Shown: piece after piece, positions 1-64,000 of the stretch
Numbering within the stretch: the first letter of the stretch is position 1
How the letters are laid out: each line of letters begins with the position of its first letter
Virus record (IMG/VR): IMGVR_UViG_3300044675_005321
Location: 3,647-67,646 of that record
Reading direction: 5' to 3' (one strand)
From: a virus
Length of the DNA: 64,000 nucleotides
Program-made: the position numbers and the translations under genes
The notes under the pieces: generated by a model
Told to the model about the DNA's origin: nothing
The model's database searches: none
Seen by the model: the letters and a program-made list of their open reading frames with translations, nothing else

Positions 1-1
1 A

Positions 2-1405
2 CAAGCAAACGGGCTCGTTTCCGCTGCTGATCTAGCTGATTTAAACAGCGCCCTTCGCAAGTCTGCAACTATTGGCTACCAAACCCCCGCCGGCACTTCC
101 GGTGGTGATACAGGTTCTTTAAGTCCTTTAGTTCCTCAAAGCATTGAAAACATTTTGGCAAGTGCTACTTATAGTATGAAGCAACTTGCTTTATGGCCTG
201 CAATGCCTAAAGTATCTGTTACTAATACCTTACACGAATACGCCGTAATCAATTCTCATGGCTTAGATATTGATCCATTTATTAGCGAAGGTTCCGCCGG
301 TACTACAAATCGCTCTGAATATCAAAGAAAGTCAATTCGTATCAAGTACTTAGCTGAAAGAAGAGAAGTAACTGACGTAGGAACCTTGGTTGGCTTGATT
401 GGCGCTAATCAAAATGCGATTGCTTTAGAAACAGAACGCGGCACACTCTCTTTGCTTGCTAAGCTTGAAAAAGCAATGTTCCACGCTAAAGAAAGTAATA
501 ATCCTTTACATTTCGATGGTATCATTCATCAAATTGAATCATATAACAATGGTTCAAATGTATTTGATGCCCGCGGCGCAAGTCCATCACCTAGACTTCT
601 TCAAGACATTTTGGCTAAGCTTTATTCTGCGCCTTTATATGGTACCCCTGATTGTATCTATGTAACCCCAGATATTCATGGCGAATTGATCAAGTTTGCC
701 GTTCAATTTGGCCGCCATGATCAATTGGTTCTTACTAATTCTTCATCTATTACATATGGTACTCAAGAAATTTCTATCATGGGCCCAGTCGGACCAGTAC
801 CAGTAAAGAGCGCCCCATTCTTGGCGAACAATGGTAAAGCGCCATCCACAGGAAGCGCAACCACAGGCGCCGCCGCTGCCCCTGTTCTTTCTTCTGCGGT
901 TGTTGCTGCTGATCTTGCGTCTCAATTTGAAGCGAATGACGCGGGCGATTATTTCTATAAGATCGTAGCAATCAACAATAGTGGTTATTCCGCTGCCGTC
1001 ACTTCTGCCGCTAAGACCGTAGCCGCCGGCGATAAAGTAACTTTGACTATTGCTCAACAATCAGACGCAATCTATTTCAAGATTTTCAGAACACCAGTAG
1101 ACAAGCCAGCAACAGAAGCGGTATTGATCAGCGAAATTCCCGCTACCAATGGCGCGGCTACTGTGTTTGTTGATCGTAATGAAAACATTCCTAACGGGCA
1201 TAAGATCGTATTTGTTCAACATAGTTCCGAAGTTATGGAATTTGCAAAATTACTTGACTTCTTCAGACGCCCCCTCGCTGAAGTACAAACCAGCAAACCA
1301 TTTTTACTCATGCTTTTTGGTTCACCTATTGTTAAGGTTCCTTCTAAGTGTTGGGTTGTCAAGAATGTTCGTGTGGGTTCAAGCTTGATCGAAAAATTGA
1401 GCTAA
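2..1405 (+). CDS. Major capsid protein (5' end outside window)
   Basis: Frame is open from the window edge (QANGLVSAADLADLNSALRKSATIGYQTP...) into the 155..1405 ORF. N-terminal K-S-x-T-x-G-Y resembles the processed start of SPO1/Twort-like capsid proteins; lies upstream of neck and tail genes. Confidence 0.85.
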   Translation, partial: QANGLVSAADLADLNSALRKSATIGYQTPAGTSGGDTGSLSPLVPQSIENILASATYSMKQLALWPAMPKVSVTNTLHEYAVINSHGLDIDPFISEGSAGTTNRSEYQRKSIRIKYLAERREVTDVGTLVGLIGANQNAIALETERGTLSLLAKLEKAMFHAKESNNPLHFDGIIHQIESYNNGSNVFDARGASPSPRLLQDILAKLYSAPLYGTPDCIYVTPDIHGELIKFAVQFGRHDQLVLTNSSSITYGTQEISIMGPVGPVPVKSAPFLANNGKAPSTGSATTGAAAAPVLSSAVVAADLASQFEANDAGDYFYKIVAINNSGYSAAVTSAAKTVAAGDKVTLTIAQQSDAIYFKIFRTPVDKPATEAVLISEIPATNGAATVFVDRNENIPNGHKIVFVQHSSEVMEFAKLLDFFRRPLAEVQTSKPFLLMLFGSPIVKVPSKCWVVKNVRVGSSLIEKLS

Positions 1406-1498
1406 GTTTATTATTTACTTATTTAATATGAAATTATGATAATATGAGGGCATAGAATAAAAGTTCTAAAACTCAATGTTTTAGATTTAAGGTGTCCC

Positions 1499-36807: not shown

Positions 36808-36830
36808 TTTTAATAAGTACTTGATTGACT

Positions 36831-38356: not shown

Positions 38357-39117
38357 AAGAAAACAAGATACATTTAGGCGATTGCCTTGACCTTATGCCG
38401 TCCATTCCCAGTAAATCGGTTGATATGATCCTTTGCGATTTGCCTTATGGGACAACGGCTTGTGAATGGGACAGCATCATTGACATGGCTAGGCTTTGGG
38501 CTGAGTATGAACGAGTGATTAAGGATAATGGAGCTATTGTTTTGACGGCTAACTCAGTATTCACCTTTAAACTTTATAACTCAAATCCCAAAATCTTTAA
38601 ATACAAACAAGTGTGGGATAAAATTATAAAAGTTGGGCACTTGTCAGCAAATAGAATACCCATGCGACAACATGAGGATGTTTTATTATTTTGCAGGGGG
38701 ACGCCTCCTTATTTTCCACAAATGTCAAAAGGTGCACCATATACTATGAAGAGAAACAATAGAATGGAATCTGTGGCTTACTTAGGAGGATCAGCAACGA
38801 AAAGAAGTGATACAAATAATAACGGAGAACGATATCCTTCAGATATTATACAAATAGCATCTGCGGTATTCTCAAAAGATAAAGGGCAACACCCAACACA
38901 AAAGCCAGTAGCCTTGTTTGAGTACCTAATCAAAACCTATACCAACGAAAACGAGCTAGTCTTAGATAACTGCTCAGGCAGTGGCACCACCGCCGTTGCC
39001 TGCATAAATACAAACCGCCGGTTTATCTGCATTGAGAGAGATGAAACATATCATCGCAAGTCAATTGAGAGACTGGCAAATCATGAACCACTATTGCACA
39101 TGGGGGATAAATGCTAG
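38350..39117 (+). CDS. Beta-class N6A/N4C DNA methyltransferase, array copy 3
   Basis: Same motifs; different central region. Confidence 0.92.
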   Translation: MLEENKIHLGDCLDLMPSIPSKSVDMILCDLPYGTTACEWDSIIDMARLWAEYERVIKDNGAIVLTANSVFTFKLYNSNPKIFKYKQVWDKIIKVGHLSANRIPMRQHEDVLLFCRGTPPYFPQMSKGAPYTMKRNNRMESVAYLGGSATKRSDTNNNGERYPSDIIQIASAVFSKDKGQHPTQKPVALFEYLIKTYTNENELVLDNCSGSGTTAVACINTNRRFICIERDETYHRKSIERLANHEPLLHMGDKC

Positions 39118-39872
39118 AAGAGAATAAGATCCACCTTGGCGATTGCCTTGACCTCATGCCATCCATTCCCAGTAAATCGATTGATATGATCCTTTGCGAT
39201 CTTCCCTATGGAACGACGGCCTGCGAGTGGGATTCTATTATTGATATGACTAGACTTTGGCAGGAGTATGAGAGAATTATCAAGGACAACGGCGCAATTG
39301 TTTTGACGGCCAATAATGTCTTTACTTTCAAGCTATGGTCAAGCAATCCAGCGCTTTTTAGATATAGATGGATTTGGATCAAGAGTTTAAAAACTCAATT
39401 TCTCAATGCAAATAGAAGACCTTTATCGCAATTTGAGGAAGTGATGATTTTTTACAAAAAACAGCCAAAATATAATCCTCAAATGCAAGATGGCAAAGCA
39501 TATAAAATAAGTAATGAGAAATCTTCAATCGGTGGCAAGAGTGCCTACGGTGATGAAAAACTGGTTAGAATTCCAACAGTCAATAATGGTGAATACTTTC
39601 CCAGTGATATCTTAGAATTTTCAAATGAGATAGGATTTCATCCAACACAGAAGCCGGTGGCCTTGTTTGAGTACCTAATCAAAACCTATACCAATGAAGG
39701 CGAAATCGTACTTGATAATTGCAGCGGTTCAGGGACTACAGCGATAGCGTGTTTAAATAGCAATAGGCAATTTATTTGCATGGAGAAAGACGAAACCTAT
39801 TATAAAAGATCACTTGATAGACTAGCTAATCATGAACCTCTCTTATATTTTACAAACCACAATGAAAACTAA
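39111..39872 (+). CDS. Beta-class N6A/N4C DNA methyltransferase, array copy 4
   Basis: Same motifs; different central region. Confidence 0.92.
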   Translation: MLEENKIHLGDCLDLMPSIPSKSIDMILCDLPYGTTACEWDSIIDMTRLWQEYERIIKDNGAIVLTANNVFTFKLWSSNPALFRYRWIWIKSLKTQFLNANRRPLSQFEEVMIFYKKQPKYNPQMQDGKAYKISNEKSSIGGKSAYGDEKLVRIPTVNNGEYFPSDILEFSNEIGFHPTQKPVALFEYLIKTYTNEGEIVLDNCSGSGTTAIACLNSNRQFICMEKDETYYKRSLDRLANHEPLLYFTNHNEN

Positions 39873-41306: not shown

Positions 41307-43898
41307 TTAAATGATACAAGCCCCGCCGGCGCATGCTAGTTCTTGCGCTTGTATTGTTTCATCTGTACCCTCTAAAACGCTATCAAAATCAACGGCGTTG
41401 CTTGATCTAAGAGATACCCATAAATCAAATGCGTCTGATCGATCTTGCTTCTTTTGGCGTGCTCGCTCTAAGTCTTTTTCTAGTGTTGTCTTTGATTTGT
41501 GTGTCTCATATGCTTGTTCGATTTGTTCAACCTCTTCAAAGTACATATTTTGATTTTCTACATGATCATAGACCGCTCTAAATGGGGGCTGTTGGTAGTC
41601 ATAATCCCCGCTCATTCCTAAGAAAGATACACCGCAAAAATATTCTTGATTATCAAAGACAAATTCGCCCGCTTCTTCCCACTCATGGGGGCGAACGTTG
41701 CAAGTGTTTGAAACATTGTGATCAGAACCCTCAAGGGACTTAGGGCGTGCGTTCCCATTCTTTACCCACGAATTATAGACCATTTTAACAAGTGATAAGA
41801 ATTCAGTAGCTTTGAGATCGTTTTTAAACAAGTTTTCGGGGTTGCATTCTACAGCAAAGATCAAACATTTATCTGTCCCATTCGCCGCCCATACACTATT
41901 TTTCACCGCTTGGGGGTTTAGTTCCTCAAACTTTTGAACAAGTGCAGAATCCGCGGGAACTTGTACATGTCTTAAAAATCTTCTTGAGTGTTCGGGATGG
42001 ATACCAGACGCACAACCAAGGATCACCGAAGCTGTCCCGCTAGGTTTAACACATGTAATTCTTGCAGCTTGATTGATACCGATCTTCTTTGCAAATTGCT
42101 TATTGATCACGATTGCAAATTCAGCCAGTGATTTAAGTAAAAAGGCCGCTCTATCCTCTTCATGCTTGAAAAAGAATGCTGAATTTGCAAGGCCAGTCAA
42201 TGACACACCTAGCAACGCTTCACGCTCAACGATTTGTTCAGATACCGGCCCTAAATATTCTGATTTAGTGTAACTTGCTTGAAGGGTGCCCAGCTTTACA
42301 GCGTTCTTCACCGCTACATAGAACGCATCAATTGAGTCAATAGAGAAATCTTTAAACTTAGATGCGTTAACCTCTGTCAAATTGCATGCTTGCCAACCGC
42401 TTTGAAATGTATAGCCTTGATCTTCATATTTGGATCTATTTTCGGGGTTGATCAAGTCTAATGTGTACTCTTCAACAATTTGCCCTTCTTTGTCCTTGAT
42501 GAGCATAGGACACATAGAAATTTCAACGCAATTATGAACCACTACACCATTAGCAATGAAACTATGTGTTTTGTTTTCTGTAAGATCGTAGACTTCTTCT
42601 TTCACAACAAAATCAAAAGAGACTACGGGGGAAACTCCTACATTTGAAACATTGTCATCTAGTACTACATGCACAAGATCACCAGGCAACAAATCGCCAG
42701 CCTCAATCCATCCTTTAGACGTCATGATTTGATGGTTTCTAGTACATTCTACAAAGTATCCATTTTCTAAACTCAATCGGTACACGTCTTGAATACCGGT
42801 ACAGAACACGCCCTTATCGGTACTCTCTGAAAAAGTACCTTGTTTGAATCGGGGGTCAATTCTCAAAGAAGTTTTCTGATTCTCCTCAAACAATTGCTTA
42901 GCAGTCTTATAACCTTCAGCAGTCAAGATCTTTGTTCTACCGCTAACGCATGGGTTGAAACAGAATTCTGTTGACTCTGTAAACACAAAACCAGGTTCAC
43001 CCCATTGAGGCACATTATCAAGAAACTTTTTCATAAAATCTTGTTTGTCAAGTTTATTTTTCAATGCTACCGCAGAAATATTAGCACGTGCACGATATGG
43101 CGCTTCTTTCCACCAATTACCGGTTTTCGCTGTCCACATATCCGCGTCATCCATGCTAAAAATTGCAATGGTAGCGCTTCGACGCACGCCACCGCTTAAC
43201 ACGCAATCAGATGCAATACAAACAATATCTAAACAATCAATGCTTCTTAGTTTTTGCCCAGCCCTTGAAACAAGTATCTTTTCAATCATTTGTAAACTGA
43301 ATTTTAGGGGAATAGGCCCAGGCGCTTTACCCCCATGGGACAGCGCCGCGCCTTTCTTTCTGATCAAGGAATAGTTAAAGATGGGCATTGTATCAGATTG
43401 ACCGAGATAGAATTGAATAAGGGCATCAAGCGCATCAGCCCAGCCCTCAATCGTATCTTTGATCATGATAACTTTCATTTGTGCATTGTTGATTTGATCA
43501 GATGAGATCACAGGGGGCAATTTTGAAATATGGTGCTTCTGTACAGAATAACCAACGCCACAGCCACACAATAGCAACCACAATGACTCAGCAAAGAAGC
43601 GGGGGCGATCACAAAATGACGTTGTACAATTGAAAATACGCCAAGGCTTGTCAAGAATTGCCTTCCCTCCGAATTGTAAAGATCTTTGAGAACCTAAGAT
43701 CTCTTTGCGCTTTAGTGCATCTTCAATCTCGTTCAAATCCTCATAGATTTCAATGGTATCGATGAACTTTGTTGCATGCATATTCATCAGCCGATCTACA
43801 GATTCAGACCAGTTTTCACGGCGCTTTTTAGATGGTAAATACTTTGCATATGTTTGCTTGAATGTGAAATTTGCAAGATTGTTGCGTTGAATATCCAT
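41307..43898 (-). CDS. nrdJ: Class II (B12-dependent) ribonucleotide reductase with intein
   Basis: FNCT, GCGVG, GGVRRSA, NP/CVE, CNL, CVKPSGT and C-terminal CAGGAC; no beta subunit nearby; GGAGG RBS before MDIQ. Confidence 0.9.
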   Translation of the reverse strand: MDIQRNNLANFTFKQTYAKYLPSKKRRENWSESVDRLMNMHATKFIDTIEIYEDLNEIEDALKRKEILGSQRSLQFGGKAILDKPWRIFNCTTSFCDRPRFFAESLWLLLCGCGVGYSVQKHHISKLPPVISSDQINNAQMKVIMIKDTIEGWADALDALIQFYLGQSDTMPIFNYSLIRKKGAALSHGGKAPGPIPLKFSLQMIEKILVSRAGQKLRSIDCLDIVCIASDCVLSGGVRRSATIAIFSMDDADMWTAKTGNWWKEAPYRARANISAVALKNKLDKQDFMKKFLDNVPQWGEPGFVFTESTEFCFNPCVSGRTKILTAEGYKTAKQLFEENQKTSLRIDPRFKQGTFSESTDKGVFCTGIQDVYRLSLENGYFVECTRNHQIMTSKGWIEAGDLLPGDLVHVVLDDNVSNVGVSPVVSFDFVVKEEVYDLTENKTHSFIANGVVVHNCVEISMCPMLIKDKEGQIVEEYTLDLINPENRSKYEDQGYTFQSGWQACNLTEVNASKFKDFSIDSIDAFYVAVKNAVKLGTLQASYTKSEYLGPVSEQIVEREALLGVSLTGLANSAFFFKHEEDRAAFLLKSLAEFAIVINKQFAKKIGINQAARITCVKPSGTASVILGCASGIHPEHSRRFLRHVQVPADSALVQKFEELNPQAVKNSVWAANGTDKCLIFAVECNPENLFKNDLKATEFLSLVKMVYNSWVKNGNARPKSLEGSDHNVSNTCNVRPHEWEEAGEFVFDNQEYFCGVSFLGMSGDYDYQQPPFRAVYDHVENQNMYFEEVEQIEQAYETHKSKTTLEKDLERARQKKQDRSDAFDLWVSLRSSNAVDFDSVLEGTDETIQAQELACAGGACII
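42531..42950 (-). mobile_element. Mini-intein (140 aa, no endonuclease)
   Basis: Starts CVSGRTKILT, block B CTRNHQI, ends VYDLT...SFIANGVVVHN followed by extein Cys. Confidence 0.92.
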
Positions 43899-43973
43899 GT
43901 TTATTTCCTCCATGGTTTACAGTGATGAAAGTTCCTAAGTATAAATCTTTAAATATGTGTAAACAATTTTATT

Positions 43974-44363
43974 TTAGCGTGTGTACTCAATCTCAATGAG
44001 TTCTTGAATCTCTTGATTTACTTCTTTTACTTCTGTCTCAATCGTTTCTTGAATCTCTTTCATTTCTTTTGCGCCTTTACCGATACACAGAAACAAAACA
44101 GATAGGCAAACAATAATCAATGAAAATTCGCTAATTGTGAGTAGTGAGGCAATATCAACAAAGAGTAAAGGCAATAAACAAACGATTAGAAAGCATGTGA
44201 TACATGTAATGATTGTTTTATGTGCTCTTCTTTGTTCTTTGTGGATAAGTAAAAGTTTTTCAAGCGTTAATCGGTAAACCATGAGGTTCATTAAGTCTAC
44301 GCTTGCCCGCTTCAAGTCAATTTGTTCGGGGTTGGGATTAATTTCTTTGTCTTGCTCGATCAT
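43974..44363 (-). CDS. Two-TM membrane protein
   Basis: Two hydrophobic stretches flanked by charged helices. Confidence 0.6.
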   Translation of the reverse strand: MIEQDKEINPNPEQIDLKRASVDLMNLMVYRLTLEKLLLIHKEQRRAHKTIITCITCFLIVCLLPLLFVDIASLLTISEFSLIIVCLSVLFLCIGKGAKEMKEIQETIETEVKEVNQEIQELIEIEYTR

Positions 44364-44415
44364 TGTTTTTTGTATCCTTTTTGTGCGTTTCTTTGATCAT
44401 TTTGCATAGAATGTA

Positions 44416-45243
44416 CTAGAAGTTATCATCACCAAATAAATTATATAAATTTGATACTCTTTTATTAGCAATAGCTGCATATTCTGGATTTATTTCACTA
44501 GAAATAAAATTTCTTTTTAATTTTAGGCACATTTTAGCTGTGGTCCCACTCCCCACAAAGGGATCATAAACTAAATCCCCCTCATTACTCCAAGAAAAGA
44601 GGTGATCTTCTACTAACTTCTCAGGAATTATAGCAGGATGTGAAAAGGCAAAATTATCTTTGGTAGAATGCCCCTTACCTACATTATATTCCCATACATT
44701 AGTTCTTCTACCATACTTTTGATATCCTCCCCTAGGATGCTTATATAATTGACCAGAATGTAGTCTTTTTGTACCAGAATCACCCTTTCGCTCTTCTTTA
44801 TTCTCCCTATCACAGATTAAGTTTATTGTCTTGGGTTTACCCTTACTAAAAACAAACATATATTCAAAAGTTTGCCAATATCCTTGATTATTACCACATG
44901 CACCTCTGGGTTTTTTCAGGTATATCATTGTATCAAATAATCCAAAACCTATCTGTTTAAAGTATAAAGCTTGTTTAAAAGATGAACCAGATTCATCCCA
45001 ATTTGTAGTCTGATCACCCACCACCCAAACAACAACTCCCCCAGATTTAGTAACTCTATATAAGCTAGTTATGATCCGCTCAATATCAATCTTAAAGTTA
45101 CCATCATAGTATCTCATATTGTCATATGGAGGTGATGTTATTGTTAAATCTAAAAAATCACTAGGCATTCTATTCATTGTACATATACAATCCTCTATAT
45201 AAACTTTATTTAGTTCTAGTGGAATATCATTAGTACTATGCAT
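44416..45243 (-). CDS. Beta-class DNA methyltransferase (SPPY, likely N4C), divergent from the others
   Basis: TSPPY, HPA and DPFVGSGTT motifs; AAGGAG RBS. Confidence 0.92.
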   Translation of the reverse strand: MHSTNDIPLELNKVYIEDCICTMNRMPSDFLDLTITSPPYDNMRYYDGNFKIDIERIITSLYRVTKSGGVVVWVVGDQTTNWDESGSSFKQALYFKQIGFGLFDTMIYLKKPRGACGNNQGYWQTFEYMFVFSKGKPKTINLICDRENKEERKGDSGTKRLHSGQLYKHPRGGYQKYGRRTNVWEYNVGKGHSTKDNFAFSHPAIIPEKLVEDHLFSWSNEGDLVYDPFVGSGTTAKMCLKLKRNFISSEINPEYAAIANKRVSNLYNLFGDDNF

Positions 45244-45419
45244 TTTTCAAACTCCTTGTTAGATGTCTTTTTTTAGAGTGGAATGATATGTAATCTTTCT
45301 CCTAGGGGTTTTACAAGAAAAATAAAATCTTGTTATCTATAAACATACATAGATCATAAAAACACATAAGAAAGGAAAAATATATTCACAAGCTATCCAT
45401 TGTTGAACAATCCAGGCAT

Positions 45420-45713
45420 TCATTTTTGTTCATCCATATTCAAAATAAATTGATTATTGATACCGGTAACAGTGAAATTTGCATCACTGTTGGCGGGGTG
45501 AATTTTTACTAGAAACTTGCCACTAACGACCGGATGAAAATCAATTTCCCAGTTATCAAACACGCGGTAAATGTTTTTATCTGTCACCTCTGCAATCATT
45601 GACGCCGCCTCAATCAAAGAGTACATAGATGAAAACTTAGTAGGGATTCCCATTTCTTTTTCATGGTCACATTTGATTATAAAGTCTATTTCAAACTTTT
45701 CGGGGGTTCTCAT
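45420..45713 (-). CDS. Hypothetical protein
   Basis: Overlaps thyX end; same operon. Confidence 0.55.
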   Translation of the reverse strand: MRTPEKFEIDFIIKCDHEKEMGIPTKFSSMYSLIEAASMIAEVTDKNIYRVFDNWEIDFHPVVSGKFLVKIHPANSDANFTVTGINNQFILNMDEQK

Positions 45714-46419
45714 ATGTTCTCCATAGTTCAGATTTCATTTGTTCTAGTTCTTTTTTAATAAAGATTGATTTGTCTAGTAGCTTCATAGATTCAGGGAATA
45801 AGAACGCTGTAATCTCTTTGACAGCGCCGGCAAATTCCCTAATCTCTTCTTGTGCGTGCTCATCAAGGCGTAATGCTAAAAAGTGCATGATTGCTTGTAA
45901 ATCAGCCTTCCAGATACAAGATGAATACATACCCAGGGGCAATTGAACGCGTGCTTGTTCTCTACATATCCCTTGAGATAGCATCCATTTGTAATTTTGG
46001 TAGCAAACTTTGTATGACTCATTTAACCGGTCAAACGCTTCTAGTTCGATATTTGTTTCAACGTGCCCATAACTTGATTGCTTGCTTGTTGGGTGCTGTA
46101 GCCTCCATATATCAGGCCTAAAGAACTCTTCTTTGATTTCTACATAGCGCCCAGATACTTCATTCCATGAACAGCCGATTACATGTTTCATCCATTGCCT
46201 AAGAACAAAGATTGGCGCTTTGACTCTAAATTTAATGCTTGCCATTCTAAAGGGTGATGTGTGCTCATGCTCCCATAGGTAGCTCATAAGCTTTGCATCT
46301 TTATCAGTGAACTCTTCAGTTTGCGCGCCAAAAGATACGCGGGCGGCATTCACAATCGAACAATCATCACCGAACACATCAACCAGTTCAACAAAACCTT
46401 CATAGATATCAATTTTCAT
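45691..46419 (-). CDS. thyX: FAD-dependent thymidylate synthase
   Basis: AARVS, HTSPF, RQWMKH...NEVSGRY, REQAR and LRLDEHAQEEIR motifs. Confidence 0.92.
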   Translation of the reverse strand: MKIDIYEGFVELVDVFGDDCSIVNAARVSFGAQTEEFTDKDAKLMSYLWEHEHTSPFRMASIKFRVKAPIFVLRQWMKHVIGCSWNEVSGRYVEIKEEFFRPDIWRLQHPTSKQSSYGHVETNIELEAFDRLNESYKVCYQNYKWMLSQGICREQARVQLPLGMYSSCIWKADLQAIMHFLALRLDEHAQEEIREFAGAVKEITAFLFPESMKLLDKSIFIKKELEQMKSELWRTYENPRKV

Positions 46420-46443
46420 ATGTACTCCTTAGTAGTCCTTCTA

Positions 46444-46974
46444 TTATAATACGCTTAATTGAAATTCGTTTATTTTAGATACTAAATCGGGTAATTCTGT
46501 ATTAGGTACTAATGAGACTTTGTAGGCTTGCAAATCCTTGAGATTGAGAGATTTCTTAGTATCATGTGCCCAGTCTCTAAAGGGAATAAGAAACCATTGA
46601 TCGTCTGTATCTTTGGGCGTGAGACATACTAAGATACATGCAACAAATCCCCAGCGGTCAAGAAGCTTTAGTTCGTCAATCTGTTTTTCATTGATTGCAT
46701 CCAGTGTAATCATTGTACTTGATCGATATTTTAATTCGATCAGCCCGCTTCTCCCATCACGTAGGAAAATTTCAAAATCTGCTCCAGCTGCTCCAGTGTT
46801 CACCGCTAAAAATCGATGATTACTTAGGTTCTTTGAGACTCGAACATAAGGTTCAAATCGTTTCTTAATCATCCCTAGATCTTGAGTCATATAGTATTGG
46901 TTTAATCTCTCAATGATACGCTCATAATAATCACCCGCCTTCTTTGATTTAAGGCCTCTTTTCAAATCTTCCAT
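46444..46974 (-). CDS. RecU-like Holliday junction resolvase
   Basis: G..YE..I...N..Y, ADF, IELK and Q...L motifs. Confidence 0.7.
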   Translation of the reverse strand: MEDLKRGLKSKKAGDYYERIIERLNQYYMTQDLGMIKKRFEPYVRVSKNLSNHRFLAVNTGAAGADFEIFLRDGRSGLIELKYRSSTMITLDAINEKQIDELKLLDRWGFVACILVCLTPKDTDDQWFLIPFRDWAHDTKKSLNLKDLQAYKVSLVPNTELPDLVSKINEFQLSVL

Positions 46975-47064
46975 GTGGTTCTATGCTCCTATGCTTAAAA
47001 TAGCATGGTAGCATATTAGAATGTAAAACGCATAATTTGATGATCGTATACTCGTAAATAAATT

Positions 47065-47274
47065 TTACATTGCTAGCATGTTGACAACATATTGTACTAG
47101 TAAACACCAGCCTACTACGATTACAGGAATCAAAACAATACTTAGAATAGATATGACGCATGTTAATAAGAACGATGCTACTTCTTCAAAAACAGTTGTC
47201 TTTGGTTCACTTTGTTCTTGTACTTGTTCTTTTTTGACGATTGGGAATAGTCCACAGGGTTCAGGTTTTCTCAT
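47065..47274 (-). CDS. Small membrane protein
   Basis: Long C-terminal hydrophobic stretch; ATGA coupling. Confidence 0.5.
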   Translation of the reverse strand: MRKPEPCGLFPIVKKEQVQEQSEPKTTVFEEVASFLLTCVISILSIVLIPVIVVGWCLLVQYVVNMLAM

Positions 47275-47618
47275 TTTGGAATTACGCTTTCTCTTGTTTC
47301 AAGTTCATTGATTTCGGCGAGGATGTGTGGCGCTTTACTTGTCAAAATTGATGCAAAACTATCTGTACTTGATAGGTTGAATCGTAAATACTTTGTTGTA
47401 AAGTGATGGGCAAGTGATACATGAACAAATCTATAATCTACAAAAGTATTTAGTACAATGATCACATCTGTTTCACTAATACATGCGTTGAATAGTACTT
47501 CATGCAATGTTTCTTTGTTGTCAAGTTCTAAGCTTTTAGCGTTTACTTCCCAAGCGAGGCCAGAAGGTTCTAAGCCGGCGTTTAGTAATGTATTTGTAAT
47601 TTGTTGGTTGTCGATCAT
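47271..47618 (-). CDS. Hypothetical early protein
   Basis: GGAG RBS before MIDNQ; promoter directly upstream. Confidence 0.6.
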   Translation of the reverse strand: MIDNQQITNTLLNAGLEPSGLAWEVNAKSLELDNKETLHEVLFNACISETDVIIVLNTFVDYRFVHVSLAHHFTTKYLRFNLSSTDSFASILTSKAPHILAEINELETRESVIPK

Positions 47619-47659
47619 TTTTTTCTCCGTAGTGTGATCGTTTTTGTTAAGGTAGTTTG

Positions 47660-47719
47660 TGAATAGCACATGGTTTCTATGTTGTCAATAAATTTTACAA
47701 AATAAATTAAAAATATTTT
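47660..47719 (-). promoter_or_regulatory. Sigma70-type promoter with conserved upstream box
   Basis: AAAATATTTTTAATTTATTTTGTAAAATTTA-TTGACA-17 bp-TATTCA. Confidence 0.7.
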
Positions 47720-48606
47720 ACTTATCTTCTTTTGATAAAGACTCATAGTCTAATTCGTTGATTACTTTTTTGCTAAGTCCTGAATCACATAGACCCCAAG
47801 TCAAACAGCCGCTTAGGTATTCTTCTTCAAATAGTTCAAGCTGATCATCGTTTTTCAAGGCCCAGTCTAGAACCTCATCCACATTTCCACGCTTGAAAAA
47901 AGAGTAAACCGCATCTTTGCGCCCTTTTTGTTTGGCGAGCTCTTTTACTTCTGTCTCAAGCTGTCTAATACGCTCAAAGCGTTCGGGCGATTCATGGTAT
48001 GCGTGCTTGATTTCTGATTTGCGGGCAAAGATGCAAGGGAAACAGCCAACACGTGAAAAACCTCTTGTATATAAAGGATTCGGCGCAACATTAAATCTTT
48101 TGTGAATTGCGATTACGTCGTCAACAGTCCATTCAATCAAGGGGCGCCAGATTGTACTTTCATCTTTTTCCTCAAACGCACCTAGTTTGCTTCGTGCTTG
48201 GCTTTCTTCTTTGCGAATACCTACAGCGCTCACAGGTTTCTTTTTATACTTTGCCCGTACGTCATCCATGTAGTCTAATTGGGGGGCTACCTTGAGTTCA
48301 AGCGTACAAGTTCGAATTACATTAGAAGGGAAGAATATTTTATTAAGTACTAATTCTTCATACCCCCCCCCTATTCTCTGTCTTGAAATACTTTTCGTTT
48401 CGTAGTCTCTTGATCTCTTTTTTCAAAACAAACTTCTCTAAATAGTTCAAGTACTCATATGTTGCTTCATGCTCCCAGCCGGTATCACAGAACACAGCTT
48501 CAAAATCAAGGTTCAATTCAAGTAGATGCAAGATCATTGCTGTTGAATCTTTGCCGCCCGATACATTGGCTACAAGTGGGCGATCTTTCAAAAAATCAAG
48601 GTTCAT
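47718..48606 (-). pseudogene. PAPS-reductase-family (PP-loop) gene split by a frameshift in a G9 tract
   Basis: 5' part has SGGKDS and DTGWE; the other frame continues FPS..RTCTLELK, GIRKEES.AR, RVGCFPC. Removing one G at 48363-48371 gives one 295-aa ORF. Confidence 0.85.
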
Positions 48607-52961: not shown

Positions 52962-53214
52962 TTTTTTATATAGTTTCAATGGTTGCGTTTTTATTACGGC
53001 GCTTCTGTACTTGCTCATATGGATTTTGAAGCTTGTCCACGAACTACGATTTGTACACATTGGCGCCCTTCGCATGTTCGCTTTATGCGTGTTACTAGGT
53101 TTCTTTGTGTACTTCTTATTCATGCTTAGTTTACGAGCGCCGGCGATCATTGCGTCTTTCATGTTTGTTAATATGATCATCGGTGCGTTGGAAGGTGAGG
53201 GCAATGAAAACTAA
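52954..53214 (+). CDS. Small multi-TM membrane protein
   Basis: Three hydrophobic segments; overlaps both neighbours. Confidence 0.55.
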   Translation: MVDFLYSFNGCVFITALLYLLIWILKLVHELRFVHIGALRMFALCVLLGFFVYFLFMLSLRAPAIIASFMFVNMIIGALEGEGNEN

Positions 53215-54211
53215 TTGCGTTTATCATGGTGATTGTCTTGATTTGTTGCCTAGCATACCGAGTAAATCTGTTGACATGATACTTTGTGATCTTCCGTACG
53301 GGACTACAGCTTGTGCGTGGGATTCAATTATCCCTTTAGATAGGTTATGGAGAGAATACGAACGAGTAATCAAGGATAATGGGAACATTGTTTTAACCGC
53401 TCAAGGTATGTTCGGGGCTAAGCTAATGACTTTCAGAGAAACATGGTTCAATCATGATTATGTATGGATAAAGAACCAACATTCAAACTTCGCTTTAGTA
53501 GGTATCCAGCCACTACGTATCTTTGAAAATGTACTTGTATTCAGACCACCAAGAAAAGACGATATAGATAGAGCATTTAACAAAGAACTAAGGGCATATT
53601 TCAAGCAAGTAAATGAGTTCATAGGTTTAAATAGATCACAGATAGAACAGATCATAGGAAATAAGGGCTATCATCATTCTTACGGCGTGACGGGTTGTCA
53701 ATTTGAACTATGCACACAGAAAACATATGAACAATTGATCGAGTGTTTCAAGATTGACCAGATGCAGGGCTATTTGAACTTTGAAACTTTGCAATCTATG
53801 AAAGAAGAATTGATTCCTTTTACTTTTAACTTTGATGATCGTATTAAAAGTACAAAGCAAGCAAAGAAAGATGCTTTTGGAAGTACTGACACTTTAGGCA
53901 ATTGCGCAAAAGATTACAAAGAACACACAAGCAAAGAATACGAAAACTATCCAAGAAATACGCTATATTTTGACTGTGAACGAGGACAACACCCAACACA
54001 GAAACCGGTATCACTATTTGAATATTTAATAAGAACCTATTCAAATGAAAATGAAGTAATCTTAGACAATTGCAGCGGTTCAGGGACTACAGCGATTGCG
54101 TGTTTAAATAGTAATAGGCAATATATTTGCATAGAAAAAGATGAAACCTACTACAAAAAATCACTTGAGCGCATAGCTAATCATGAACCCTTGTTAAACT
54201 TAGGACAATGA
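53204..54211 (+). CDS. Beta-class DNA methyltransferase copy 5 (long central region)
   Basis: DLPY, HPTQKP and DNCSGSGTT motifs. Confidence 0.92.
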   Translation: MKTNCVYHGDCLDLLPSIPSKSVDMILCDLPYGTTACAWDSIIPLDRLWREYERVIKDNGNIVLTAQGMFGAKLMTFRETWFNHDYVWIKNQHSNFALVGIQPLRIFENVLVFRPPRKDDIDRAFNKELRAYFKQVNEFIGLNRSQIEQIIGNKGYHHSYGVTGCQFELCTQKTYEQLIECFKIDQMQGYLNFETLQSMKEELIPFTFNFDDRIKSTKQAKKDAFGSTDTLGNCAKDYKEHTSKEYENYPRNTLYFDCERGQHPTQKPVSLFEYLIRTYSNENEVILDNCSGSGTTAIACLNSNRQYICIEKDETYYKKSLERIANHEPLLNLGQ

Positions 54212-54444
54212 AATGTATGGCAGTCATTTATTAGTTCGCTTATTGATTAGTGAAACATGCATCTTAGATATCTGTGAGCGTTTAGAGCGTGTGCATTGCC
54301 TCATAGATCAAGAAGTCATAGACAGAATACGAGCGCTTGAAACCACGTACCAAGGGCGGGCAACGAAAACAATTTTATTGATGCCTTAAATTTGAGAATG
54401 TTGCTTGAAACTTATATACTTGTACTTGATCAACAGGAGTATAC

Positions 54445-54726
54445 ATGAACAAGTTTGAAAAGATAGCAATTGACCTATCAACCATTTTATCTATGAAGAA
54501 TGAGGCCTATGGAAACGCTTTTGACAAGACAACACAGATACTCACGCTTCTTTATCCTCATGGAATCAAAGTAGACCAGTACAAAGATATTCATGTCATT
54601 GTTCGTATGCTTGATAAGCTGTCAAGGATTGCAAGAGACAATGACCCAATGGGGGAAAGTCCGTATATGGACATTGCAGGATATTCTATTTTGGCACTTG
54701 CTAGGGATGAGAACAATGAGAACTAA
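54445..54726 (+). CDS. DUF1599/nucleotide-modification-associated-like protein
   Basis: KNEAYGNAF...RMLDKLSRI...DIAGYSIL; TTGAGA-17-TATACT promoter and AGGAG RBS upstream. Confidence 0.65.
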   Translation: MNKFEKIAIDLSTILSMKNEAYGNAFDKTTQILTLLYPHGIKVDQYKDIHVIVRMLDKLSRIARDNDPMGESPYMDIAGYSILALARDENNEN

Positions 54727-55735
54727 TTGCGTGTTGCATGGTGATTGTCTTGACTTGTTGCCAAGTATACCCGATAAATCGATCGATATGATACTTTGTG
54801 ATCTTCCGTACGGGACTACAGCATGTTCATGGGACTCTATCATCCCTTTAGATAGGTTATGGGCTGAGTATGCAAGAGTGATCAAAGATAATGGGAACAT
54901 TGTTCTGACAGCTCAAGGCATGTTTTGTGCAAAGCTTATGACATTCAAAGAAACATGGTTTAATCACGATTACGTGTGGATAAAGAACCAACATTCAAAC
55001 TTCGCTTTGGTAGGTATCCAGCCACTACGAATCTTTGAAAATGTACTTGTATTCAGACCACCAAGAAAAGACGATATAGAGAGGGCATTTAACAAAGAAC
55101 TAAGGGCATATTTCAAGCAAGTAAATGATTTCATAGGTTTGACGGCTGAAAAGATAGCAAAGATAATAGGCCATATGGGTTACCATCATTCTTACGGCGT
55201 TAATGGTTCACAGTTCGCACTATGTACAAAAGAAACCTATGATCAATTAATTGAGTGTTTCAAGATTGACCAGATGGACGGATACTTGACCTTTGAAACT
55301 TTGCAATCTATGAAAGAGAAACAATTTAACGCACCATATACTTTTAATTTTGATGACCGTATAAGAAGTACAAAACAGACAAAGAGTAATGATTTTAATA
55401 GGCAGATGTATGGAGACAAAACAAATCAAAAATACAAAGGGCATATAAGCAAAGAATATGAAAACTACCCAAGAAACACGCTATATTTTGATTGTGAAAG
55501 GGGTATGCATCCAACACAGAAGCCAGTAGCGTTGTTTGAGTATTTAATAAGAACCTATTCAAATGAGAATGAAGTTATCTTAGACAATTGTTCAGGTTCA
55601 GGGACAACAGCGATAGCGTGTTTAAATAGCAATAGGCAATTTATTTGCATGGAGAAAGATGAAACCTATTACAAAAGATCACTTGAACGCATAGCTAATC
55701 ATGAACCCTTGTTAAACTTGATCAATGAGAAATAA
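54716..55735 (+). CDS. Beta-class DNA methyltransferase copy 6 (paralog of copy 5)
   Basis: Same motifs; start placed at MRTNC. Confidence 0.92.
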   Translation: MRTNCVLHGDCLDLLPSIPDKSIDMILCDLPYGTTACSWDSIIPLDRLWAEYARVIKDNGNIVLTAQGMFCAKLMTFKETWFNHDYVWIKNQHSNFALVGIQPLRIFENVLVFRPPRKDDIERAFNKELRAYFKQVNDFIGLTAEKIAKIIGHMGYHHSYGVNGSQFALCTKETYDQLIECFKIDQMDGYLTFETLQSMKEKQFNAPYTFNFDDRIRSTKQTKSNDFNRQMYGDKTNQKYKGHISKEYENYPRNTLYFDCERGMHPTQKPVALFEYLIRTYSNENEVILDNCSGSGTTAIACLNSNRQFICMEKDETYYKRSLERIANHEPLLNLINEK

Positions 55736-62018: not shown

Positions 62019-63937
62019 ATAAAAAGTTTAAATCGTACATAATAGAGAAGATACTTAGAAACAAAGTGAACAGGGTTAAAAAAGATGTTTAGATACTCAT
62101 CATTCATTGACTCATTGCTCAAGGCAATGACTCATAAATATATTAGACGCGTTCCCAAGGGAGTAACCAAGACAGGGAAAACAAAGTATATTTATTACTA
62201 CGCAGGCCAAGAAGGGCATGGTCAAGGCGTAGCACATGAAAGCGAACTTGTTGAAGGGGCAGCATTTGCATTCGGCGAACATAGAAAGACAAGATATCAT
62301 GCACATATTCGCAAAGTAGACGGCGATAAAATTACTGTTCGTTACGATGATGGGGCGAAAAAGGGACAAGAAGAAACTATGACTAAGAAGCAATTTCAAG
62401 CGTTAGTGCATGGTGAACATAAGGAATCAATCAAACAGGCACAAGCTAAAGCAGATAGGCAATTAAAAGACTTTCAAACAGGCAAAGACAAGGGCGTAAA
62501 GGTTAAACAAGAAACACTTGATAAACTAGCGCAAAGAGTAGCAAATTTAAAAAATTTAGTCAGTCACATTGACCAGCCCGCAAAGGTGGATGCCCCTTGG
62601 ATGAGTGAACGAGAACGAAGAGTTTTTGAGGGGCAAAATCGACTTTTTACATTGCTTGAGAACAAAGAGATCACCGAGTCACTTTTAAAATCTAGAACGA
62701 ACCCTACAATTATCAAGGACATGCTAAAAAATGTTATTACATCTATTTTCAAGTACAAAGACCTATCACAAATTCCTAAGAACGATTTACGTCTCTTATT
62801 AGACGCAAATAGATCCGCATATATGAACTCAAACTCTGATATAGAAACTTTGATTCTAACACTATCGCAATTATGGCAAAAATTGCCCTATGCACCAAGA
62901 GAAAAAAATGAACAGGTTGGGAGAATAGATGTTATACATGCGGATCTAGTAAAACAGACAGCCGAACAAAAAAAGAAAAGGGCGATACATATTGAGGCGG
63001 TAAAGCAAGCGCAAGATGCGATGATCAAAACTGATCCAGATTTAGCAAAGATCATCTACGGCAATATGATTTTTACTCAAGTTACAGATAAAAAAGGAAT
63101 TGGGGCAGGTGTACAAGGTTTTTTCTCTACCGGCACGCCGGCGCAGAAAGTGTATATTGGGAGAGGTACAAAACTAGATACTATTTATCATTCCGCCGAT
63201 GTGATTTATATGGACACCGAAGATACATTCGATAGAAATGCTTCTGTCTTTTCCCCCCTTCCTGAAAAAGCCAAGACATATTTACAAACAGAATATATTA
63301 AATCTGTTGTGATTCATGAGCTTGCTCACCGTTTCTCAAAATCTTTGATAGAACAAGGTGATAAGGTTTCTTTTCTAGAATCGTTTAAGTATTTTGCATA
63401 CAATGCCGGCCAGATTACACGAACGGTAGAATCTGTCATGAATAGACCCATTCAAGAATTCACCATATTTTCAAAACAAGCTAGCAGACTCATCAGCACC
63501 ATTCTAGGGAACTACCCCGCTTTTAACCGATCGACCAATGAAATCACAGGTATTTTGAAGCAAGATAATGAGTCAAGCAAAGAGCATACAATTAAGGTTT
63601 CTGATATAAACTTTGAGGCGTTAGGAGAAAGCAAGATAGTACATTCCGAAGGTGCTAATTCTACTATACAAATACCCTTAAACAATGGGGGGCGCTTTAA
63701 TATTTTAATTCCAATTACACCAATAGACCTTCTAGAAAAATTTAATAGATATCGTACATTATTGCCTACCACAAATGCACATGCAAACGATGAAGAATGT
63801 TTTAGTGATATGATGGCGGCGGTATGTGATCCGAACTACAAAGATGAACCATTGCGAACAAAATTCTTACAATACATAGTAGAGTATAAAGACAAATTCG
63901 GGGCGTAATGTACTAAGAAATCATAGATAAAAAGTTT
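62004..63937 (+). repeat. 26-bp perfect direct repeat flanking the 62085 gene
   Basis: actaagaaatcatagataaaaagttt at 62004-62029 and 63912-63937. Confidence 0.85.
62085..63908 (+). CDS. Candidate internal head protein: HKYIRR leader plus zincin-like (HExxH) domain
   Basis: LLKAMTHKYIRRVPKG leader; VVIHELAH and downstream EECFSD. Confidence 0.65.
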   Translation: MFRYSSFIDSLLKAMTHKYIRRVPKGVTKTGKTKYIYYYAGQEGHGQGVAHESELVEGAAFAFGEHRKTRYHAHIRKVDGDKITVRYDDGAKKGQEETMTKKQFQALVHGEHKESIKQAQAKADRQLKDFQTGKDKGVKVKQETLDKLAQRVANLKNLVSHIDQPAKVDAPWMSERERRVFEGQNRLFTLLENKEITESLLKSRTNPTIIKDMLKNVITSIFKYKDLSQIPKNDLRLLLDANRSAYMNSNSDIETLILTLSQLWQKLPYAPREKNEQVGRIDVIHADLVKQTAEQKKKRAIHIEAVKQAQDAMIKTDPDLAKIIYGNMIFTQVTDKKGIGAGVQGFFSTGTPAQKVYIGRGTKLDTIYHSADVIYMDTEDTFDRNASVFSPLPEKAKTYLQTEYIKSVVIHELAHRFSKSLIEQGDKVSFLESFKYFAYNAGQITRTVESVMNRPIQEFTIFSKQASRLISTILGNYPAFNRSTNEITGILKQDNESSKEHTIKVSDINFEALGESKIVHSEGANSTIQIPLNNGGRFNILIPITPIDLLEKFNRYRTLLPTTNAHANDEECFSDMMAAVCDPNYKDEPLRTKFLQYIVEYKDKFGA

Positions 63938-64000
63938 CATAATAAGATAATATACAAGAAACTAGAAACACAATAAACAGGACTAGAAAACATGTTTAGA

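What the first reader, a model, noticed from the sequence alone, without database searches (positions are those of the whole stretch)
1..64000. Genome-wide strand polarity: CTGG nearly absent from the + strand, CCAG common
Seen: reading the + strand by eye I found CTGG only six times (37345, 38312, 39073, 39561, 44484, 44906), all inside methyltransferase genes, while CCAG occurs throughout. The bias holds in + strand genes (Ala-Gly and Thr-Gly written GCC-GGN, ACC-GGN or ACA-GGN rather than NCT-GGN) and in - strand genes (fibre, terL, nrdJ), so it is not codon usage. Established: T7 carries its EcoP15I sites in one orientation and escapes Type III restriction, which needs inversely oriented sites. 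Inference: selection by a host system that cuts at head-to-head asymmetric CCAG-containing sites, or a polar replication or packaging signal. The exceptions mark recently imported DNA.
Basis: partly seen in the sequence, partly recalled or inferred. Interest (0 to 1): 0.88.

Follow-up and report, generated by a model that had tools for sequence, protein, structure and literature searches.

The report
One-way CCAG sites in a phage
An uncultured freshwater phage has silently rewritten its genes so that the four-letter DNA word CCAG points one way along the whole genome, most likely to escape a bacterial DNA-cutting enzyme that only cuts between oppositely pointing sites.

Summary
The whole 67,646-bp phage genome has 8 and 186. 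A synonymous-codon shuffle expects 104±8.5 CTGG. The purge uses all three reading frames and does not flip in minus-strand genes, so it acts on DNA, not on codons or RNA.

The nearest relative (84% DNA identity) has 0 CTGG against 157 CCAG. CCAG positions turn over like any other 4-mer. Of 46 other phage loci used as controls, none shows the polarity.

The same genomes purge other restriction-type words on both strands. The relative carries a second one-strand purge, CCAAAB, at 2 found against 56 expected.

Best reading (about 0.68): escape from a host restriction system that needs inverted site pairs (Type III, Type ISP or MANTIS-like) and recognises CCAG. This is the T7/EcoP15I principle, here with a 4-bp word. 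Host and enzyme are unidentified.

Earlier notes of this scan report CCAG purged on both strands in unrelated aquatic phages.

The parts
1..64000 (.). Window-wide one-orientation arrangement of the 4-mer: CCAG 182 on + (that is, CTGG 182 on -) and CTGG 6 on +
   Evidence: the whole genome has 186 and 8
36825..39872 (+). Array of four tandem PF01555 DNA methyltransferase genes holding 4 of the 6 + strand CTGG (37345, 38312, 39073, 39561). The array has CCAG 6 and GC 0.385
   Evidence: The array has no counterpart at this locus in G001. The copies are 64-73% aa identical
44416..45243 (-). Fifth PF01555 methyltransferase gene holding the other 2 + strand CTGG (44484, 44906). GC is 0.326, below the genome's 0.39
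   Evidence: The segment is not aligned to G001
53183..55735 (+). Two further PF01555 methyltransferase genes (53183-54211 and 54593-55735) with no + strand CTGG. They are homologous to the single methyltransferase of G001
27609..35209 (-). Minus-strand gene block (endolysin, 953-aa tail fibre, terL) in which the bias does NOT flip. The sense strand avoids CCAG and uses CTGG freely
41307..48606 (-). Second minus-strand block (nrdJ with intein, thymidylate synthase, resolvase, split PAPS-reductase-family gene), showing the same non-flipping bias

Best explanation
The phage (an uncultured freshwater myovirus of about 67.6 kb) is under strong, continuing DNA-level selection against the word CTGG on one strand, while the complementary orientation (CCAG) is neutral. 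The most likely cause is a host restriction system that recognises the asymmetric 4-bp site CCAG, marks only one strand, and cuts only when two unmodified sites face each other on the same DNA molecule. This is the logic of Type III, Type ISP and MANTIS-like systems. With all sites in direct repeat the genome offers no inverted pair and is refractory, whereas a single reversed site among about 150 would restore a cleavable pair. That explains why the purge is complete.

Shown: the counts, independence from coding strand, synonymous routes in all frames, persistence over 16% DNA divergence, neutral turnover of CCAG, and absence from control phages.

Inferred: that the agent is a host enzyme, that it requires inverted pairs, and which type it is.
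For: (1) Counts are 6 against 182 in the window, 8 against 186 in the genome and 0 against 157 in relative G001. Codon-shuffle expectations are 104-108 and 98.

(2) The purge is DNA-level and strand-fixed. In + genes NCT before GGN occurs in 1 of 187 cases against 1009 of 3337 elsewhere, and NNC before TGG in 0 of 74. In - genes the mirror word is avoided: CCA before G in 1 of 50, NCC before AGN in 1 of 70, and CAG after C in 0 of 14. Sense CTGG is used freely there.

(3) G000 and G001 differ at 16% of 49,865 aligned bases, yet neither backbone has a CTGG. Meanwhile 76 of 145 aligned CCAG sites differ between them, a conservation of 0.48 against a median of 0.49 for 248 4-mers.

(4) Restriction avoidance is a general trait of these genomes. 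Words purged on both strands include GAGCC/GGCTC (0 of 28 expected, 1 of 26), CCSGG, CTGCAG (0 of 8), and in G002 CCWGG and GAATTC (0 of 18). CTGG is the only 4-mer with observed/expected at or below 0.2 in G000, G001, G002 and G005.

(5) There is a second one-strand purge, independent of coding strand. In G001, CCAAAB occurs 1 time against 38.5 expected in + genes and 1 against 17.9 in - genes, while its complement occurs 37 times against 50.

(6) Of 47 loci of at least 10 kb (from 79 fetched) from phages carrying a homologous methyltransferase, only L069 is polar, and L069 is G002 itself. The other 46 have CTGG observed/expected of 0.31-1.42 and are symmetric.

(7) The purge state varies between near-identical terL sequences. 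L022 has 0 of 35 and 1 of 48 while L046 has 6 of 29 and 29 of 43. L029 has 26 of 42 while L047 has 8 of 52. It is absent in the GC 0.69 lineage. This fits host-specific agents.

(8) Literature. T7 carries 36 EcoP15 sites in one orientation and is not restricted, while T3 has both orientations and is restricted (PMC3874151, passages read). One-strand depletion is described as an escape from Type III and MANTIS (bioRxiv 10.64898/2026.09.23.753747, passages read). Type III systems with 4-bp sites exist: CACC and CGCC (PMC8259958, abstract and section 14). A CCAG-specific methyltransferase was confirmed in H. pylori A45, and CCAG is methylated in T. phaeum (PMC10689673, passages read).
Against: No host and no enzyme were identified, and there is no cultured relative (under 30% aa identity).

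The same 4-mer is the most depleted word in clade members with GC from 0.37 to 0.64. According to earlier unchecked notes of this scan, it is also purged in unrelated aquatic phages. That would need an unusually widespread and conserved specificity for a restriction system.

G000 still has 8 reversed sites, which under a strict inverted-pair rule should leave it sensitive.

Both purged words (CTGG and CCAAAB) lie on the same + strand. A model in which the + strand itself is vulnerable predicts this, whereas the pair model gives it only one chance in two.

GAGCC, published as a Type III site (Eco86II), is purged on both strands here.

CCAG is slightly above all 500 shuffles (182 against a maximum of 180).

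Many distant relatives deplete the second orientation as well (L025 has 12 of 61, G005 has 146 of 265). A strict pair rule does not require this.
Confidence: 0.68

Rival explanations
1. One physical strand of the phage DNA is specifically vulnerable. For example, it is exposed as single-stranded DNA during rolling-circle or unidirectional replication, or it is the only strand attacked by a site-specific nickase. A host or phage enzyme that acts on CTGG (and CCAAAB) in that strand then selects against each site independently.
For: Both one-strand purges, CTGG and CCAAAB, are on the same + strand. The purge is complete, and the other strand is unconstrained. The polarity never flips along the genome.
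Against: Four-fold degenerate third positions have the same composition on the sense strand of + and - genes (GC skew -0.089 against -0.106, AT skew 0.036 against 0.056). This leaves a molecule-wide skew of at most about 0.01, so there is no footprint of prolonged single-strandedness. Two large palindromic, origin-like elements at 18.5 and 49.3 kb would, if they fire bidirectionally, switch strand roles, yet no switch is seen. A nickase model predicts only weak selection against an isolated reversed site, but the purge is total. From recall, I know of no site-specific single-strand DNA defence with 4-bp specificity.
Confidence: 0.14
2. The polarity is intrinsic to the phage. CCAG or CTGG would be a polar signal read by the phage's own machinery: a terminase or packaging motor, a primase recognition word, or a Chi/KOPS-like guide. 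In that case CTGG in the wrong orientation would cause premature cleavage, priming or stalling.
For: The motif and its polarity relative to the majority coding strand recur in both deep branches of the terL clade. CCAG is mildly above the codon-shuffle expectation (182 against 149 here, 125 against 78 in G003). The phage encodes its own primase-polymerase-like protein, helicase and PolA.
Against: CCAG sites are not positionally conserved (0.48 against a median of 0.49). G002 has lost most of them (27 of 152 kept, rank 234 of 249). The CCAG excess lies within the range of the 46 control loci (0.43-1.56). Clade members with similar terL show no bias at all (GC 0.69 group, L038, L029). G003 seems to purge a different word, CTRGG. 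According to earlier notes, unrelated phages purge the same word on both strands, which points to an external agent. Known polar signals are enriched 5-8-mers, not an avoided 4-mer (from recall).
Confidence: 0.08
3. The asymmetry is a by-product of codon usage, context-dependent mutation bias, RNA-level selection (for example avoidance of an mRNA interferase site), or a sequencing or assembly artefact.
For: 77% of the coding sequence is on the + strand, and CTG is a rare codon here. CAG outnumbers CTG overall, 735 to 340.
Against: The codon-preserving shuffle expects 104 (minimum 78 of 500). The bias holds in - genes, whose mRNAs carry 61 CUGG, which excludes an RNA-level cause. All three frames are purged by different synonymous routes, which excludes a single mutation type. 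Independent assemblies that differ at 16% of bases share the bias. None of the 46 control loci shows it.
Confidence: 0.02

Closest known systems
Phage T7 and EcoP15I (Type III R-M): 36 CAGCAG sites all in one orientation, with T7 refractory and T3 restricted (PMC3874151, passages read; original papers Schroeder 1986 and Meisel 1992 seen only as references)
   Same: An asymmetric site is present many times in a single orientation along the whole genome. The logic is that enzymes requiring inverted pairs cannot cut direct repeats.
   Different: The word here is a 4-mer, not a 6-mer, with 157-186 sites instead of 36. The bias is demonstrably independent of coding strand; as I recall, T7 is transcribed from one strand only. 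It is maintained across relatives that are 16% diverged. The cognate enzyme and the host are unknown.
   Same: Depletion on one strand only is interpreted as escape from hemimethylating systems that prefer a site orientation. A graded preference could explain why relatives also partly deplete the second orientation.
   Different: That work concerns 6-bp sites and statistical tendencies (about 40% of virulent phages). This is a near-absolute purge of a 4-bp word in an uncultured freshwater clade.
Type III R-M systems with 4-bp sites: DthLIII (CACC) and FnoB1III (CGCC) (PMC8259958). Also a CCAG-specific methyltransferase in H. pylori A45 (PMC10689673)
   Same: They show that 4-bp asymmetric Type III sites exist and that CCAG-specific DNA methylation exists.
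   Different: None comes from a plausible host of this phage. The passages I read do not state the type of the H. pylori CCAG enzyme, and its supplements were closed.
Classical restriction-site avoidance in virulent phages (survey PMC6286503, seen in search listing only)
   Same: Silent recoding removes enzyme target words. It is present in these same genomes for GAGCC, CCSGG, CTGCAG, TCGA and ACGT.
   Different: Classical avoidance removes both orientations. Here one orientation is left at or above expectation.

Membership tests
Single-orientation site arrangement evading restriction that requires inverted pairs (T7/EcoP15I type) | An asymmetric word occurs many times with (nearly) all copies in one orientation, far beyond chance | tested here: met
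   6 against 182 in the window, 8 against 186 in the genome, 0 against 157 in G001; the codon shuffle expects 98-108 of the rare orientation
Single-orientation site arrangement evading restriction that requires inverted pairs (T7/EcoP15I type) | The bias belongs to the DNA molecule, not to coding strand or codon usage | tested here: met
   + genes 4 of 82 expected and - genes 2 of 22 expected; mirror-image codon-pair avoidance in - genes
Single-orientation site arrangement evading restriction that requires inverted pairs (T7/EcoP15I type) | The retained orientation is selectively neutral (sites are tolerated, not needed) | tested here: met
   CCAG positional conservation is 69 of 145 = 0.48, against a median of 0.49 (rank 139 of 248); observed/expected of 1.22 is within the control range of 0.43-1.56
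Single-orientation site arrangement evading restriction that requires inverted pairs (T7/EcoP15I type) | A cognate host enzyme exists (Type III, ISP or MANTIS-like) with that specificity and an inverted-pair requirement | not testable with these tools
   The host is unknown. There is no cultured relative. The only genome-contig hit is a 3.6-kb contig in a lake MAG. The literature shows only that 4-bp Type III sites and CCAG methylation exist elsewhere
Single-orientation site arrangement evading restriction that requires inverted pairs (T7/EcoP15I type) | The phage is resistant, and becomes sensitive when a reversed site is added | not testable with these tools
   This needs the host and a plating assay
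Classical (two-strand) restriction-site avoidance | The word and its reverse complement are both depleted | tested here: not met
   CCAG is 186 against 152 expected in G000 and 157 against 144 in G001. The criterion is met for other words in the same genomes and for CCAG/CTGG in some relatives (L022 has 0 of 35 and 1 of 48)
Polar guide sequences (Chi, KOPS/SRS type) | One orientation is over-represented, the signal is functionally conserved, and the skew switches at origin or terminus | tested here: not met
   There is no enrichment beyond controls, no positional conservation and no switch along 67.6 kb
Avoidance of an mRNA-cleaving toxin site | The depletion follows the sense strand of every gene | tested here: not met
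   The sense strands of - strand genes carry 61 CTGG

The most novel reading that the evidence does not exclude
CCAG would be the target of a widespread, still unidentified, orientation-sensitive (one-strand-marking) defence with a 4-bp site in freshwater bacteria. Phages that meet a strict form of it become perfectly polar (this clade: 0 against 157). Phages that meet a graded form, or additional forms, purge both orientations (distant clade members here, and the giant and T4-like lake phages noted earlier in this scan). The polar clade, together with a second polar word (CCAAAB), would then be a natural reporter for finding and classifying that system.
Probability: 0.3. Interest if true: 0.75.

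Novelty: new member of a known kind. Interest (0 to 1): 0.6.

Why it matters
One-orientation site arrangement is a textbook curiosity that rests largely on T7 and EcoP15I, where, as I recall, every gene lies on one strand, so coding bias is hard to exclude. This case is cleaner and far more extreme. It involves a 4-bp word with about 100 expected sites of one orientation reduced to 0-8. The purge is proved independent of gene direction and has been held through 16% sequence divergence. A second one-strand word and ordinary two-strand purges in the same genomes serve as internal controls.

The case predicts a specific, testable host system: CCAG, marked on one strand, requiring inverted pairs. 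It also gives a mechanistic clue to the CCAG purge that this scan has repeatedly seen in unrelated aquatic phages. More generally, it shows that strand-resolved word statistics, controlled for gene orientation, can reveal what kind of restriction an uncultured phage faces.

Tried and rejected
Codon usage, RNA-level selection, single-mutation-type bias and artefact were all tested and rejected.

Replication-strand mutational asymmetry was tested at four-fold sites and none was found.

Other word asymmetries in relatives (GACA/TGTC, CAGA/TCTG, ACAG/CTGT) looked striking. After the codon shuffle they are mostly codon usage in loci coded on one strand, so I dropped them.

I scanned for further polar 5-7-mers in G000 and G001 pooled. 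Only weak 6-mers and the CCAAA-family words emerged. The latter were followed up.

A phage-encoded Type III-like system was considered. The 543-aa helicase has only a weak generic ResIII hit (E 7.9e-5), and it sits with a PD-(D/E)XK exonuclease inside the replication module. I rejected this as unsupported.

Host identification failed. There are no tRNA genes. There is no near DNA match in the phage collection. Protein matches to cultured phages are below 30% identity. The one genome-contig hit is a 3.6-kb contig of a lake MAG.

A donor of the methyltransferase genes was not found. The best relative is 80% identical and lies on G003's contig.

Literature searches for a described polar or avoided CCAG in phages found none. 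This covers only the held library. The supplements of the MANTIS preprint and of the Snapper paper, which may list motifs and enzyme types, were closed.

The tools structure prediction, complex prediction, read laying and the look-up of sequencing runs were not used.
Full report
OBSERVATION. On the + strand of the window CTGG occurs 6 times, at 37345, 38312, 39073, 39561, 44484 and 44906. CCAG occurs 182 times. The tool DNA search independently lists 188 CTGG matches, 6 on + and 182 on -, against a mean of 307 for both strands in 100 dinucleotide-preserving shuffles. In a scan of every word against its reverse complement, CCAG/CTGG is the top asymmetry at k=4 (z 12.8). All eight one-letter extensions of CTGG are depleted (0-4 against 27-64), so the word is the bare 4-mer. 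The window is bases 3647-67646 of a single 67,646-bp virus record. That whole record has CTGG 8 and CCAG 186.

IS IT MORE THAN CODON USAGE? I called 69 ORFs greedily, covering 93.8% of the window. These are my own calls, not a curated annotation. I shuffled synonymous codons within each gene 500 times. The shuffle expects CTGG 104.2 +/- 8.5 (minimum 78). By gene orientation it expects 82.0 in + genes (observed 4) and 22.2 in - genes (observed 2). It expects CCAG 149.1 +/- 9.8 (maximum 180) against 182 observed. This null keeps the codon usage that the purge has itself shaped, so it is conservative.

Codon-pair counts show how the purge is achieved. In + genes:
- NCT precedes GGN in 1 of 187 cases, against 1009 of 3337 elsewhere.
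- NNC precedes TGG in 0 of 74 cases.
- CTG precedes G in 5 of 468 cases.

In - genes the mirror word is avoided on the sense strand:
- CCA before G in 1 of 50 cases.
- NCC before AGN in 1 of 70 cases.
- CAG after C in 0 of 14 cases.

Sense CTGG is used freely in - genes (for example NCT before GGN in 36 of 88 cases). The selection therefore acts on one physical DNA strand, through all three frames, and not on mRNA or codons.

WHAT THE GENOME IS. The phage has a major head protein, tail sheath, baseplate, portal and terL. It has a replication module with a 1108-aa primase/polymerase-like protein, a PD-(D/E)XK exonuclease, a helicase and a family-A polymerase. It also has a clamp-like protein, nrdJ with an intein, thymidylate synthase and seven PF01555 DNA methyltransferases. 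It has no tRNA genes. No cultured relative exceeds 30% protein identity. The one genome-contig hit is a 3.6-kb contig in a lake MAG. The phage is an uncultured myovirus, probably freshwater, with an unknown host.

RELATIVES. A terL search of IMG/VR gave 48 loci. I fetched five whole contigs. Counts come and codon-shuffle expectations:

| Contig | Size | Relation to G000 | CTGG found / expected | CCAG found / expected | Note |
|---|---|---|---|---|---|
| G001 | 55.8 kb | terL 98% aa; DNA 83.8% over 49,865 aligned bases | 0 / 98 | 157 / 144 | |
| G002 | 65.8 kb | terL 91% | 10 / 108 | 71 / 137 | CCWGG 0 on both strands |
| G003 | 25.5 kb | terL 69% | 18 / 40 | 125 / 78 | CTGGG and CTAGG together 0 / 17 |
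| G005 | 65 kb | terL 51%, GC 0.56 | 23 / 175 | 146 / 265 | |
| G004 | 77.9 kb | GC 0.68 | 715 (not) | 939 (not) | no purge; its loci L015/L016 have 287 against 266 and 165 against 132 |

I analysed the 29 loci of at least 7 kb, out of the 48. CTGG or CCAG is the most depleted 4-mer in most of them. One orientation is near zero and the other ranges from near zero to expectation:
- L022: 0 of 35 and 1 of 48
- L025: 0 of 43 and 12 of 61
- L021: 6 of 32 and 34 of 40

On a terL tree of 28 of these loci plus the window (one locus was dropped because its match was under 380 aa), the state differs between almost identical terL sequences. Examples are L022 against L046, and L029 against L047. The GC 0.69 lineage and L038 show nothing.

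As an outside control I used 47 loci of at least 10 kb, out of 79 fetched, from phages that carry a homologue of the tandem methyltransferase. Only L069 is polar, and L069 is G002 itself. The other 46 have CTGG observed/expected of 0.31-1.42 and CCAG of 0.43-1.56, and they are symmetric. I did not test whether some of those 46 belong to the terL clade.

SELECTION, NOT HISTORY. G000 and G001 differ at 16% of aligned bases. Of 145 aligned CCAG sites in G000, 69 are CCAG in G001. That is 0.48, rank 139 of 248 words, against a median of 0.49. CCAG sites therefore come and go like any other word. CTGG would be expected to arise at a comparable rate, yet the shared backbone has none in either genome. 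The retained orientation is neutral and the other is removed as it arises. In G002, CCAG has been lost more than other words (27 of 152 kept, rank 234 of 249). This fits G002's partial depletion of the second orientation.

THE EXCEPTIONS. All six window sites lie in five PF01555 methyltransferase genes. The two further genomic sites (1045 and 1192) lie in a 538-aa ORF outside the window. Its start is paralogous to the ORF at window 62085.

With best-hit alignments of at least 500 bp, none of the 8 sites is aligned to G001. With a lenient criterion (at least 200 bp), 2 of the 8 fall in 207-215-bp matches of 70-73% identity to a different methyltransferase of G001. The unaligned quarter of G000 still holds 38 CCAG against 6 CTGG.

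The four tandem genes are 64-73% identical in protein, with variable middles. Two of them share an identical stretch around their CTGG. G002 has two such genes and G003 one, and G002's carry no CTGG. The closest database relative of copy 2 is 80% identical. The fifth gene has GC 0.326.

'Exchangeable cassettes that have not been purged' therefore fits. 'Recently imported' is plausible but unproven. In G002 all 10 exceptions lie in backbone DNA.

CONTEXT INSIDE THE SAME GENOMES. These phages show ordinary restriction avoidance on both strands:
- GAGCC/GGCTC: 0 of 28 and 1 of 26
- CCCGG/CCGGG: 0 of 12 and 0 of 14
- CTGCAG: 0 of 8
- TCGA: 111 of 206
- ACGT: 94 of 141
- In G001, CTGAG/CTCAG: 0 of 22 and 1 of 27
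- In G002, CCWGG, GAATTC (0 of 18) and GTCTC/GAGAC

Against that background CTGG is the only 4-mer with observed/expected at or below 0.2 in G000, G001, G002 and G005, and it is one-sided.

A second one-sided purge appeared. In G001, CCAAAB (B = not A) occurs 2 times against 56 expected: 1 of 38.5 in + genes and 1 of 17.9 in - genes. Its complement occurs 37 times against 50. G000 has 17 against 71 and G002 has 36 against 72. G005 has GCCCTC 1 of 26 against GAGGGC 41 of 38, but there nearly all genes share one strand.

MECHANISM. The pattern has three parts. More than 150 sites are tolerated in one orientation. Essentially none is tolerated in the other. The purge is complete rather than partial. 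This is what is expected if the selecting enzyme cuts only when two unmodified sites on one DNA molecule face each other and communicate over long distances. That holds for Type III enzymes, which do not cleave direct repeats. T7, with 36 EcoP15 sites in one orientation, escapes, while T3 does not (PMC3874151, passages read). It also holds for Type ISP enzymes, and in graded form for MANTIS (bioRxiv 10.64898/2026.09.23.753747, passages read). A single reversed site among 150 restores a cleavable pair, which explains the strength of selection.

Four-base Type III sites are documented: CACC and CGCC (PMC8259958, abstract and section 14). CCAG-specific methylation is also documented (PMC10689673, passages read). 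A graded orientation preference, or additional enzymes in other hosts, would account for relatives that also thin out the second orientation.

Which orientation is lost may simply follow the smaller starting number. The shuffle expects 108 CTGG against 152 CCAG on the majority coding strand. This last point is inference.

WHAT SPEAKS AGAINST IT.
- No host or enzyme is known.
- The same 4-mer is purged in lineages of GC 0.37-0.64. Earlier, unchecked notes of this scan also report it in unrelated aquatic phages. That asks for an unusually widespread specificity.
- G000's 8 reversed sites should leave it sensitive under a strict rule. Perhaps its five extra methyltransferases compensate; this is untested.
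- Both one-sided words are missing from the same + strand. A model in which that strand is vulnerable predicts this outright.
- GAGCC, a published Type III site, is purged on both strands.
- CCAG slightly exceeds all 500 shuffles.

RIVALS. A strand-specific attack (single-stranded stage or nickase) remains possible at about 0.14. Four-fold sites show no molecule-wide skew: the sense-strand GC skew is -0.089 in + genes and -0.106 in - genes. The polarity does not switch at the two origin-like palindromes. A nickase would also select only weakly against a lone reversed site.

A phage-intrinsic polar signal has about 0.08. It is contradicted by the neutral turnover of CCAG, by the absence of enrichment beyond controls, and by clade members with no bias.

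Codon usage, an RNA-level cause, mutation bias and artefact are rejected, at about 0.02.

NOVELTY. The principle is known. The instance is new in the library I could search: searches found no description of polar or avoided CCAG in phages. It is the most extreme and best-controlled example I am aware of; that comparison rests on recall. I file it as a new member of a known kind. It carries a bolder possibility: that it reports a widespread, unidentified CCAG-specific, orientation-sensitive defence in freshwater bacteria.

Noticed in passing
G001 (L049-L051) whole contig; window/G000 genome-wide: There is a second one-strand purge. CCAAAB (B = C, G or T) on the + strand occurs 2 times against 56 expected in G001 (1 of 38.5 in + genes, 1 of 17.9 in - genes), while its complement occurs 37 times against 50. 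G000 has 17 against 71 and G002 has 36 against 72. It looks like a second orientation-dependent target.
   Followed up: partly
window and G001/G002 genome-wide: Classic two-strand purges of restriction-type words occur: GAGCC/GGCTC (0 of 28, 1 of 26), CCSGG (0 of 12, 0 of 14), CTGCAG (0 of 8), TCGA and ACGT. G001 also purges CTGAG/CTCAG and ACTAGT. G002 purges CCWGG, GAATTC, GGWCC and GTCTC/GAGAC. CCGG is above expectation in G000 (110 against 70), possibly as a sink for mutated CTGG.
   Followed up: partly
G003 (L056-L057); G005 (L062-L065): G003 lacks CTGGG and CTAGG entirely (0 against about 17 expected), while CCCAG and CCTAG are above expectation, which hints at a CCYAG-type polar word. 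G005 has GCCCTC 1 of 26 against GAGGGC 41 of 38. The statistics are weak or confounded, because genes lie mostly on one strand.
   Followed up: no
window 18486-18698 and 49209-49456: There are two large near-perfect palindromes, with 53-nt arms (98% complementary) and 57-nt arms (96%), about 30.7 kb apart. They share TTAAGAT-like words and are candidate origins or packaging sites.
   Followed up: partly
window 47718-48269 and 48358-48606 (- strand): A PAPS-reductase-family (PP-loop) gene is split into two ORFs. The upstream piece matches Pfam PF01507 positions 2-65 and the downstream piece positions 101-173.
   Followed up: partly
window 41307-43913 (- strand): The B12-dependent ribonucleotide reductase (nrdJ-like) gene is interrupted by an intein splicing domain (PF14890, E 5.8e-13).
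   Followed up: no
genome 1-144 and 67503-67646 (outside and at the end of the window); window 62085-63908: The first 144 bases of the contig recur at its end at 97.9% identity, and bases 56-551 resemble 65650-66146 (78%). These are a shared upstream region plus gene start of a small family of 'leader plus variable body' genes. The contig is probably a closed circle or terminally redundant.
   Followed up: partly
window 36825-39872, 44416-45243, 53183-55735: The phage carries seven PF01555 DNA methyltransferase genes, whereas the nearest relative G001 shows one. Array size differs among relatives: 4 in G000, 2 in G002, 1 in G003 and 0 at that locus in G001.
   Followed up: partly
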